From NCBI RefSeq assembly GCF_009914755.1, contig NC_060940.1: a DNA stretch of 64,000 nt; one strand, written 5' to 3'. The notes below the pieces were generated by a model that searched no databases, was not told the DNA's origin, and worked only from the letters and a program-made list of their open reading frames with translations. Made by a program: the position numbers and the translations under genes. Every line of letters starts with the position of its first letter. The first letter of the stretch is position 1. Of this stretch, positions 9,517 through 10,419 are shown in pieces. This DNA comes from the human T2T-CHM13v2.0 reference genome, Homo sapiens.

Positions 9517-10419
9517 GGAGGAGCCAAGATGGCCGAATAGGAACAGCTCCGGTCTACAGCTCCCAGCGTGAGCGACGCAGAAGACGGGTGATTTCTGCAT
9601 TTCCATCTGAGGTACCGGGTTTCTCTCACTAGGGAGTGCCAGACAGTGGGCGCAGGCCAGTGGGTGCGTGCACCGTGCGCGAGCCAAAGCAGGGCGAGGC
9701 ATTGCCTCACCTGGGAAGCGCAAGGGGTCAGGGAGTTCCCTTTCCGAGTCAAAGAAAGGGGTGACGGACGCACCTGGAAAATCGGGTCACTCCCACCCGA
9801 ATATTGCCCTTTTCAGACCGGCTTAAAAAGCGGCGAACCATGAGATTATATCCCACACCTGGCTCGGAGGGCCCTACGCCCACGGAGTCTCGCTGATTTC
9901 TAGCACAGCAGTCTGAGATCAAACTGCAAGGCGGCAGCGAGGCTGGGGGAGGGGCGCCCGCCATTGCCCAGGCTTGCTTAGGTAAACAAAGCAGCCGGGA
10001 AGCTCCAACTGGGTGGAGCCCACCACAGCTCAAGGAGGCCTGCCTGCCTCTGTAGGCTCCACCTCTGGGGGCAGGGCACAGACAAACAAAGAGACAGCAG
10101 AAACCTCTGCAGACTTAAGTGTCCCTGTCTGACAGCTTTGAAGAGAGCAGTGGTTCTCCCAGCACACAGCTGGAGATCTGAGAACGGGCAGACTGCCTCC
10201 TCAAGTGGGTCCCTGACCCCTGACCCCCGAGCAGCCTAACTGGGAGGCACCCCCCAGCAGGGGCACACTGACACCTCACACGGCAGGGTATTCCAACAGA
10301 CCTGCAGCTGAGGGTCCTGTCTGTTAGAAGGAAAACTAACAAACAGAAAGGACATCCACACCGAAAACCCATCTGTACATCACCATCATCAAAGACCAAA
10401 AGTAGATAAAACCACAAAG
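9517..10419. promoter_or_regulatory. L1 5'UTR: CpG-rich internal sense promoter and antisense promoter; YY1 site intact
   Basis: CAAGATGGCC near 9525-9534; CpG density far above the flanks. Bidirectional promoter activity is established for L1PA/L1HS 5'UTRs. Confidence 0.85.
9749..9964 (-). CDS. ORF0: Primate L1 antisense ORF0, full 71 aa
   Basis: MAGAPPPASLPPCSLISDCC...RCVRHPFL*, ATG at 9964 in a strong Kozak context (gcaATGg). Donors CAG|GTGTGG after nt +106 (9859) and CAG|GTGCGT after nt +191 (9774). Confidence 0.88.
   Translation of the reverse strand: MAGAPPPASLPPCSLISDCCARNQRDSVGVGPSEPGVGYNLMVRRFLSRSEKGNIRVGVTRFSRCVRHPFL

What the first reader, a model, noticed from the sequence alone, without database searches (positions are those of the whole stretch)
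9749..9964. L1 ORF0 splice donor SD2 is phase-matched to CDH8: predicted in-frame ORF0-CDH8 fusion from the L1 antisense promoter
Seen: the L1 is antisense to CDH8, so its antisense promoter and intact ORF0 read in the CDH8 direction towards the remaining 3' exons. ORF0 donor TTT TCC AG|GTGCGT (exon end 9774) falls after 191 nt = 63 codons + AG (phase 2). The natural donor of this intron is CCT ATA AG|GT (25541), also phase 2 and also ending AG. Splicing SD2 to the next CDH8 exon (left of the window) would keep frame and rebuild the same split codon. SD1 (+106, phase 1) would be out of frame. Established: ORF0 SD1/SD2 form fusions with host exons, and cadherins lacking most of the ectodomain but keeping the catenin-binding tail can act as dominant negatives. 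Inference: an ape-specific, L1-demethylation-dependent isoform ORF0(1-63)-partial EC4-EC5-TM-cytoplasmic tail, without signal peptide or adhesive EC1. Its membrane topology is uncertain.
Basis: partly seen in the sequence, partly recalled or inferred. Interest (0 to 1): 0.85.

Follow-up and report, generated by a model that had tools for sequence, protein, structure and literature searches.

The report
In-frame L1 ORF0 donor in CDH8
A full-length L1 retrotransposon sits backwards in an intron of the cadherin-8 gene, and one of its antisense splice donors would join the next CDH8 exon in frame, but this is a one-in-three coincidence and no RNA or protein evidence for such a product was found.

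Summary
The sequence observation is correct. A full-length L1 (+ strand, 9517-15581) lies antisense in CDH8 intron 7. Its 71-codon ORF0 (9964..9749, minus strand) has donors after nt 106 (phase 1) and nt 191 (phase 2, exon end 9774). I found the next CDH8 exon outside the window (exon 8, window -2457..-2593). SD2-to-exon 8 keeps frame and rebuilds the natural AGG codon. The resulting 437-aa ORF runs to the CDH8 stop. SD1 stops after 57 codons.

The interpretation remains an untested prediction.
- A phase match is expected by chance one time in three.
- The SD2 31-mer occurs 550 times in this genome.
- Criscione 2016, citing Denli 2015, gives 57 observed ORF0 fusions among ~3200 genic ORF0 loci.
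- The published L1-driven CDH8 transcripts (Criscione 2016; Jönsson 2019) start in a different, internally deleted L1 about 116 kb upstream. They run into exon 3 and start downstream of the ORF0 ATG.
- Nothing in the papers I could search points to this L1.

The predicted protein has no signal peptide and lacks the first third of EC4. A dominant-negative role is therefore speculative.

Verdict: an ordinary member of a known class, of low interest.

The parts
9517..15581 (+). Full-length L1 (L1PA2-like by divergence) with an A-rich tail. It is flanked by a 14-bp target-site duplication AATTCAGTAAAATT at 9503-9516 and 15582-15595.
   Evidence: Sequence read. The 5'UTR is 903 bp, and the best non-self genomic matches are 98% identical over the full length.
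9749..9964 (-). ORF0: 71 codons plus a TGA stop, with start context gcaATGg.
   Evidence: It has no Pfam family.
9853..9861 (-). SD1 donor CAG|GTGTGG. The exon ends at 9859 after ORF0 nt 106 (phase 1). It is out of frame with exon 8.
   Evidence: the ORF ends after 57 aa.
9768..9776 (-). SD2 donor CAG|GTGCGT. The exon ends at 9774 after ORF0 nt 191 (phase 2). It is in frame with CDH8 exon 8.
   Evidence: 437-aa ORF. The 31-mer around it occurs 550 times in the genome.
9705..9713 (-). Third consensus-like donor CAG|GTGAGG. It lies about 40 nt downstream of the ORF0 stop, so using it would give a non-fusion transcript.
Evidence: context printed. My base count from the printed context puts the exon end at 9711.
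9839..9841 (-). ORF0 codon 42 (ATG). It is the first in-frame AUG of transcripts that start near L1 position ~412, and it lies in the same frame as SD2.
   Evidence: Met at positions 1 and 42.
10420..11436 (+). L1 ORF1, open, 338 aa.
   Evidence: It matches solved L1 ORF1p chains (2yko_A, E 6e-139).
11500..15327 (+). L1 ORF2, open, 1275 aa.
   Evidence: It aligns end to end with solved ORF2p 8uw3_A, with about 35 differences in the first 1000 residues by my count of the printed alignment. One of these is His where the solved protein has Asp at 205.
25541..25794 (-). CDH8 exon 7 (254 nt), covering the end of EC3 and the start of EC4. Its donor is CCT ATA AG|gt, phase 2.
   Evidence: Pfam Cadherin 58-93/93 followed by the start of the next repeat.

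Best explanation
This is an ordinary, probably fixed, L1PA2-age full-length L1 inserted antisense in CDH8 intron 7.

It carries the standard antisense ORF0 with its two donors, as do hundreds of other copies. Because intron 7 is phase 2, the phase-2 donor SD2 happens to be frame-compatible with exon 8, which lies 12.2 kb downstream.

If the methylation-sensitive 5'UTR is de-repressed, antisense transcripts could splice SD2 to exon 8. Such transcripts would carry a 437-aa ORF, or about 396 aa from Met42 if transcription starts at the usual ~400 position. Any such RNA is most likely a rare by-product. Its protein would lack a signal peptide and have a truncated EC4, so it would probably be poorly inserted and unstable.

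Shown here: the anatomy, the frame and the domain content. Inferred: promoter activity, splicing to exon 8, translation and the fate of the protein.
For: - Geometry and frame.
- The donor is a repeat-family feature. There are 550 exact genomic copies of the SD2 31-mer against 0 for the reversed control. The first look found 4449 candidates for the 5'UTR.
- Base rate: ~3200 genic ORF0 loci and 57 observed fusions (Criscione 2016, passage citing Denli 2015).
- The catalogues I could read list L1-CDH8 transcripts only from the other L1. Criscione Table S1 has 3 of 3 CDH8 rows at hg19 61935225-61952680, all marked 'previously identified: no' and 'PacBio: no'. Jönsson Supplementary Data 2 has 1 of 1 CDH8 row at hg38 61918303-61919817. 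That L1 maps to L023 3360-6342, which is window ~126360-129342.
- No row near the expected hg38 position of this L1 appears in Jönsson's supplements.
- Full-text searches for CDH8 with ORF0, L1 antisense promoter, L1PA2, L1HS, or LINE-1 plus chimeric returned only Jönsson 2019 and unrelated papers.
- There is no N-terminal hydrophobic segment (maximum 19-residue Kyte-Doolittle mean 0.56 in the first ~78 residues, against 3.74 at the TM). EC4 begins at Pfam profile position 35 of 93.
Against: - The element looks promoter-competent. The 5'UTR keeps 35 CpGs, with observed/expected 0.70 in the first 500 bp. The antisense-promoter core is identical to that of the upstream L1, which does produce capped CDH8 chimeric ESTs and is activated in DNMT1-knockout neural progenitors.
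- SD2 matches 8 of 9 consensus donor positions. Exon 8 is a constitutive exon only 12.2 kb away, closer than the 17.4 kb spanned by the documented upstream chimera.
- The fusion ORF ends at the natural stop in the last exon, so nonsense-mediated decay is not predicted.
- The catalogues read are based on ESTs or GENCODE TSSs and would miss rare junctions. I had no access to junction compendia, CAGE data, the Denli 2015 tables or the Garza 2023 supplements.
Confidence: 0.75

Rival explanations
1. In hypomethylated cells this L1 drives a real, translated ORF0(1-63)-CDH8 (partial EC4 to C-terminus) protein. That protein reaches a compartment where its tail binds catenins, and it acts as a hominid-specific dominant-negative cadherin.
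For: The 437-aa ORF is in frame and has the natural stop. The PF01049 tail is intact. The antisense-promoter core is identical to that of an active CDH8 L1. Jönsson 2019 reports increased protein for several L1-fusion genes (passage). Ectodomain-deleted cadherins acting as dominant negatives is established knowledge, recalled here and not checked.
Against: No transcript evidence was found. There is no signal peptide. About 255 residues would have to cross the membrane ahead of the TM for the tail to face the cytosol. The classical dominant-negative constructs kept a signal peptide (recalled). EC4 is truncated. The primary antisense TSS at ~400 lies downstream of the ORF0 ATG. The base rate is 57 of ~3200.
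Confidence: 0.04
2. Antisense transcripts from this L1 exist but are not ORF0(1-63) fusions. They start near L1 position ~400-412, after the ORF0 ATG. They then use SD1, the post-stop third donor, cryptic acceptors or intronic poly(A) sites. The result is non-coding or NMD-prone RNAs, or at best a Met42-initiated product.
For: The capped ESTs and the GENCODE TSS of the sister L1 start at L1 position ~350-412. Criscione places the primary antisense TSS at ~400, just past a YY1 site at 448-453 that coincides with the ORF0 ATG. A third donor, CAG|GTGAGG, lies after the ORF0 stop. In the 12.2-kb interval, 82 of 187 YAG candidates have at least as many pyrimidines as the exon 8 acceptor, and there are 29 AATAAA/ATTAAA hexamers (crude count). 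Criscione found that 73% of antisense-promoter ESTs encoded no peptide of 100 aa or more.
Against: Reviews citing Denli 2015 state that ORF0 is translated and that its two donors form fusions, so some transcription start sites must lie upstream of the ATG. The acceptor count is a crude pyrimidine tally, not a validated splice model. Natural intron 7 splicing finds exon 8 across the same interval.
Confidence: 0.2
3. The L1 5'UTR is permanently silent at this locus in all relevant cell types, and nothing is made from it.
For: It is absent from the EST and GENCODE-based catalogues read. Young L1 5'UTRs are normally methylated in somatic cells (Jönsson 2019 abstract and passages).
Against: Jönsson 2019 reports upregulation of the evolutionarily young L1 families on loss of DNMT1. 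This element retains its CpGs and an intact promoter sequence.
Confidence: 0.25

Closest known systems
L1 ORF0-host exon fusion transcripts (Denli et al. 2015, Cell 163:583; not held here, known through Criscione 2016 and three reviews)
   Same: A primate L1 5'UTR lies antisense to a gene. ORF0 has a strong start context and two internal CAG|GT donors. A downstream host exon lies on the same strand, and the SD2 junction preserves frame.
   Different: No junction read or peptide is known for this locus. CDH8 is marked 'previously identified: no' in Criscione's cross-reference, which included the ORF0 fusions.
Published L1 antisense-promoter CDH8 transcript (ESTs DA733799, DA686646, DA449371; GENCODE v25 TSS; activated in DNMT1-KO hNPCs)
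   Same: Same gene and same orientation. The sequence is identical across the antisense-promoter core and ORF0 start. Both would give a 5'-truncated CDH8 mRNA lacking the signal peptide.
   Different: It is a different element. It is internally deleted (~3 kb) and lies ~116 kb upstream, at window ~126360-129342. It precedes exon 3, whose acceptor I read as phase 0, so neither SD1 nor SD2 would be in frame. Its capped starts lie after the ORF0 ATG. Its third donor is mutated, AG to AA.
L1-MET and other L1 chimeric transcripts (LCTs) induced by L1 hypomethylation
   Same: An intronic antisense L1 acts as an alternative, methylation-gated promoter downstream of the host start codon (Criscione 2016 background passage).
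   Different: Those transcripts are shown experimentally. Here only the sequence potential is shown.
Ectodomain-deleted dominant-negative cadherins (engineered constructs; recalled, not checked here)
   Same: It retains the TM and the catenin-binding cytoplasmic domain (PF01049 at E 1.5e-32).
   Different: It has no signal peptide and keeps EC5 plus two-thirds of EC4. Its topology and stability are unknown.

Membership tests
L1 ORF0-gene fusion locus | Primate L1 5'UTR with the antisense-promoter region present | tested here: met
   The 5'UTR is 903 bp. Columns 41-232 of alignment A1, which cover the promoter core and ORF0 start, are identical to the L1 that yields capped CDH8 ESTs.
L1 ORF0-gene fusion locus | ORF0 start codon and an open frame up to the donor | tested here: met
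   ATG at 9964 in context gcaATGg, with 71 open codons.
L1 ORF0-gene fusion locus | Two internal splice donors (SD1, SD2) | tested here: met
   CAG|GTGTGG after nt 106 and CAG|GTGCGT after nt 191. The existence of two donors is stated in reviews. Their exact positions in Denli 2015 could not be read.
L1 ORF0-gene fusion locus | Downstream host exon on the same strand, frame-compatible with a donor | tested here: met
   Exon 8 lies at window -2457..-2593. SD2 gives a 437-aa ORF and SD1 gives 57 aa.
L1 ORF0-gene fusion locus | Observed chimeric RNA junction | not testable with these tools
   No RNA data are available here. The literature and the supplements I could read list none for this L1.
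L1 ORF0-gene fusion locus | Evidence of translation of the fusion | not testable with these tools
   This needs ribosome profiling or mass spectrometry.
Hominid/ape-specific young L1 (L1PA2-like) | Low divergence from sister copies, and a 5'UTR of the L1HS/L1PA2 type | tested here: inconclusive
   The best non-self 5'UTR matches are 97-98% identical at the same 903-bp length (40 of 4449 candidates scored). It is 96.6-97.2% identical to the upstream L1. The 3'UTR reads GATGAC-AAG-TTAG, and the diagnostic value of that site is recalled. No subfamily library and no other primate genome were available.
Retrotransposition-competent L1 | Open ORF1 and ORF2 | tested here: met
   338 aa and 1275 aa with no stops. 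Both give full-length matches to solved ORF1p and ORF2p.
Retrotransposition-competent L1 | Conserved catalytic residues of the ORF2 endonuclease | tested here: not met
   His aligns with Asp205 of 8uw3_A. That Asp205 is catalytic is recalled, not checked. I therefore do not file this element as competent.
Dominant-negative (ectodomain-deleted) cadherin | Cytoplasmic catenin-binding domain present | tested here: met
   PF01049 at E 1.5e-32 in the exon 12 translation.
Dominant-negative (ectodomain-deleted) cadherin | A signal for membrane insertion that leaves the tail in the cytosol | tested here: not met
   There is no hydrophobic N-terminal segment (maximum KD19 of 0.56 in the first ~78 residues). 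The only hydrophobic segment is the TM at ~256-281, which is followed by RRHK.

The most novel reading that the evidence does not exclude
In early embryonic, naive pluripotent, tumour or DNMT1/HUSH-deficient cells, this intron-7 L1 acts as a second L1-derived CDH8 promoter. It would produce a hominid-specific 437-aa ORF0-CDH8 chimera, or its Met42-initiated 396-aa form. The catenin-binding tail of that protein would titrate beta-catenin or p120 and so modulate type II cadherin adhesion or Wnt signalling in developing neurons.
Probability: 0.04. Interest if true: 0.6.

Novelty: new member of a known kind. Interest (0 to 1): 0.2.

Why it matters
If the isoform were real and translated, it would link L1 de-repression to an autism-associated adhesion gene through a lineage-specific truncated cadherin. 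It could also be a source of a tumour neoantigen at the ORF0/CDH8 junction. As things stand, the locus is one of hundreds of L1 copies with the same donor. It is mainly useful as a concrete, cheaply testable junction (T2T chr16:67589774 joined to 67577543) to look up in junction compendia.

Tried and rejected
- **Is this the L1 already published as a CDH8 alternative promoter? Rejected.** The hg19/hg38 coordinates map to an internally deleted L1 at L023 3360-6342, about 116 kb upstream of the window's L1.
- **Locating downstream exons with a genome-wide Pfam Cadherin search.** This was swamped by protocadherins: 150 of 824 candidates were scored and none was in CDH8. I found the exons instead by motif and exact-length scans of 140 kb of fetched DNA.
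- **Reading the primary sources.** Denli 2015, Speek 2001 and Matlik 2006 are not held.
- **PMC12587700 supplements.** One small file, with no CDH8.
- **PMC9385849.** Its 'CDH8' appears to be a misprint for CHD8, since the same passage elsewhere writes 'CHD8 variants'.
- **Is the L1 absent from GRCh38 (a polymorphic insertion)?** I considered this because of a recalled gene-length difference. I dropped it because it rested on recalled coordinates only and could not be tested here.
- **Validated splice-site scoring.** No MaxEnt-type model was available. The acceptor tally is crude.

Full report
**1. What is in the sequence**

The window holds a full-length L1 on the + strand. Its 5' end (GGAGGAGCCAAGATGGCC...) begins at 9517, and its A-rich tail ends at 15581. 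It is flanked by a perfect 14-bp target-site duplication, AATTCAGTAAAATT, at 9503-9516 and 15582-15595. CDH8 runs on the minus strand, so the L1 is antisense to it and lies in the intron after the exon at 25794..25541.

On the minus strand, ORF0 starts at 9964 (gcaATGg) and runs 71 codons to a TGA at 9751-9749. It contains two CAG|GT donors:
- SD1: CAG|GTGTGG after nt 106, exon end 9859, phase 1.
- SD2: CAG|GTGCGT after nt 191, exon end 9774, phase 2.

A third consensus-like donor, CAG|GTGAGG, lies about 40 nt beyond the ORF0 stop. The natural donor of the upstream CDH8 exon is CCT ATA AG|gtattt at 25541, which is phase 2.

**2. The missing exon**

The window's genome is held, so I anchored CDH8's last exon with PF01049 at C16:67441695-67441871. 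I then fetched the 140 kb between it and the window and scanned the minus strand. In window coordinates the exons are:
- Exon 8: L009 7543..7407, which is window -2457..-2593. It is 137 nt, with acceptor ttttgtag|G TTT TCC ATC and donor A|gtaagt.
- Exon 9: -64726..-64847.
- Exon 10: -77983..-78100.
- Exon 11: -136222..-136473.
- Exon 12: from -137842.

Joining in silico gave these results:
- SD2 to exon 8 reads ...TRFSR|FSIDRHTDLE..., and the junction codon AG|G = Arg is the same as in the natural splice.
- The frame stays open for 437 codons to the natural CDH8 stop. That is 63 ORF0 residues, then Arg, then 373 CDH8 residues.
- SD1 to exon 8 terminates after 57 codons.

The in-frame claim is therefore confirmed with the real exon.

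**3. What the predicted protein would be**

Exon 8 matches Pfam Cadherin profile positions 35-74 of 93. Exon 7 carries the end of EC3 and the start of EC4. Exon 11 carries the end of EC5. The exon 12 translation matches PF01049 at E 1.5e-32.

In the fusion:
- The EC4/EC5 linker DVNDNAP is at residue 126.
- The only strongly hydrophobic stretch is at ~256-281 (19-residue Kyte-Doolittle mean up to 3.74). It is followed by RRHK.
- The windows starting in the first 60 residues, covering about the first 78, reach only 0.56, so there is no signal peptide.

For the catenin-binding tail to face the cytosol, about 255 residues, including a truncated and probably unfoldable EC4, would have to be translocated ahead of the TM without a signal peptide. 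That this is inefficient is my inference from general membrane-protein biology. It was not tested.

**4. Is the match more than chance?**

No. A donor of fixed phase matches a given intron phase one time in three, and ending in AG is the donor consensus (recalled).
- The exact 31-mer around SD2 occurs 550 times in this genome (266 forward, 284 reverse; 0 for the reversed control).
- The 5'UTR drew 4449 first-look candidates.
- Criscione 2016, citing Denli 2015, gives ~3200 genic ORF0 loci, of which 57 were seen fused to an exon (passage).

**5. What is already published for CDH8**

- Jönsson 2019 (PMC6639357; passages and Supplementary Data 2) names CDH8 among L1-regulated genes in DNMT1-knockout neural progenitors. 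It lists one row: L1HS_1468, hg38 chr16:61918303-61919817 (+), with a GENCODE v25 CDH8 TSS at 61918714.
- Criscione 2016 (PMC4908685, Table S1) lists three ESTs, from NT2 cells and a tongue tumour, spanning hg19 61935225-61952680. All are marked 'previously identified: no' and 'PacBio: no'.

These transcripts come from a different L1:
- BLAST of the window's L1 against the fetched upstream DNA finds an internally deleted L1 at L023 3360-6342. It consists of the first 1486 bp (96.6% identity) and the last ~1480 bp (97.2% identity).
- That places it at window ~126360-129342, about 116 kb upstream of the finding. The 1.5-kb length of the 5' fragment matches Jönsson's annotation.
- It lies 17 kb upstream of the EC1 exon at L024 ~5522. 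I read that exon's acceptor as phase 0, so neither SD1 nor SD2 would be in frame there.
- The capped 5' ends and the GENCODE TSS fall at L1 position ~350-412, whereas the ORF0 ATG is at ~448.
- Criscione puts the primary antisense TSS at ~400, just past a YY1 site at 448-453. In this window that site coincides with the ORF0 ATG.

By analogy, many antisense transcripts of the window's L1 would start near 9928 and lack the ORF0 ATG. Their first AUG would be ORF0 codon 42 (9841-9839). It is in the same frame, so SD2 splicing would still give an in-frame product of about 396 aa.

**6. Evidence that the element could fire**

- The antisense-promoter core and ORF0 start are identical between the two L1s (alignment A1, columns 41-232).
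- The 5'UTR keeps 35 CpGs. Observed/expected is 0.47 overall and 0.70 in the first 500 bp, against 0.16 in the flank.
- SD2 matches 8 of 9 consensus positions (my count).
- The fusion ORF ends in the last exon, so nonsense-mediated decay is not expected.

**7. Evidence against efficient use**

By a crude pyrimidine tally, exon 8's acceptor has 10 of 17 pyrimidines. In the 12.2-kb interval, 82 of 187 YAG candidates have at least as many. The interval also holds 29 AATAAA/ATTAAA hexamers.

**8. Searches for this isoform**

- CDH8 with ORF0, with 'L1 antisense promoter' or with L1PA2 returned only Jönsson 2019.
- CDH8 with L1HS added two unrelated papers.
- CDH8 with LINE-1 and chimeric returned none.
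- Jönsson's supplements have no row near the expected hg38 position.
- Denli 2015, Speek 2001 and Matlik 2006 are not held.
Those tables may bear on this claim.
- No RNA-seq, CAGE or proteomic data can be queried here.

**9. The L1 itself**

ORF1 (338 aa) and ORF2 (1275 aa) are both open and align full length with solved human ORF1p and ORF2p. Against 8uw3_A, ORF2 shows about 35 differences in the first 1000 residues by my count of the printed alignment. One of these is His where the solved protein has Asp205. I recall that residue as catalytic in the endonuclease, so I do not call the element mobile.

The closest genomic 5'UTRs are 97-98% identical (40 of 4449 candidates scored). The 3'UTR reads GATGAC-AAG-TTAG. 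Both fit an L1PA2-age element rather than L1HS. The subfamily diagnostics are recalled. 'Ape-specific' is plausible but untested.

**10. Verdict**

The concept of L1-antisense-promoter-driven, 5'-truncated CDH8 transcripts is already published for another L1. My estimates are:
- About 40% that trace SD2-exon 8 junction reads exist somewhere in public data.
- About 4% that a functional dominant-negative protein is made.

Interest is low (0.2).

Noticed in passing
window 10420-15327 (+): Both L1 ORFs are open (338 and 1275 aa), which is uncommon for a non-L1HS element. However, ORF2 has His at the position of Asp205 of solved ORF2p and about 3.5% amino-acid differences overall.
   Followed up: partly
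L023 3360-6342 (window ~126360-129342, outside the window): The L1 that the literature reports as a CDH8 alternative promoter is an internally deleted copy (5' 1486 bp plus 3' ~1480 bp). The annotated lncRNA CDH8-AS1 starts at window 126376 on the + strand, which is about position 17 of this L1. It therefore looks driven by the L1 sense promoter (plus the hub's gene table).
   Followed up: partly
window 9959-9964: The ORF0 start codon (ATGGCG on the minus strand) coincides with the second YY1 site that Criscione 2016 places at L1 position 448-453. Their primary antisense TSS (~400) lies downstream of it.
   Followed up: partly
window 9367-9702 (-): A 111-codon ORF starts in the L1 5' end (antisense) and runs out into the flanking intron. 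It is most likely a chance ORF.
   Followed up: no
window 15537-15581: The L1 poly(A) tail has decayed into an (A)nC / (CAAA)n-like microsatellite, consistent with an insertion older than L1HS.
   Followed up: no
CDH8 exons 5-12 (window 33243 to about -138345): Intron phases derived from exon lengths are: i4 = 1, i5 = 1, i6 = 0, i7 = 2, i8 = 1, i9 = 0, i10 = 1, i11 = 1. Intron 7 is thus the only one of these eight where the phase-2 donor SD2 would be in frame, while SD1 would fit five of them (plus exon lengths from the hub's gene table; my arithmetic).
   Followed up: yes
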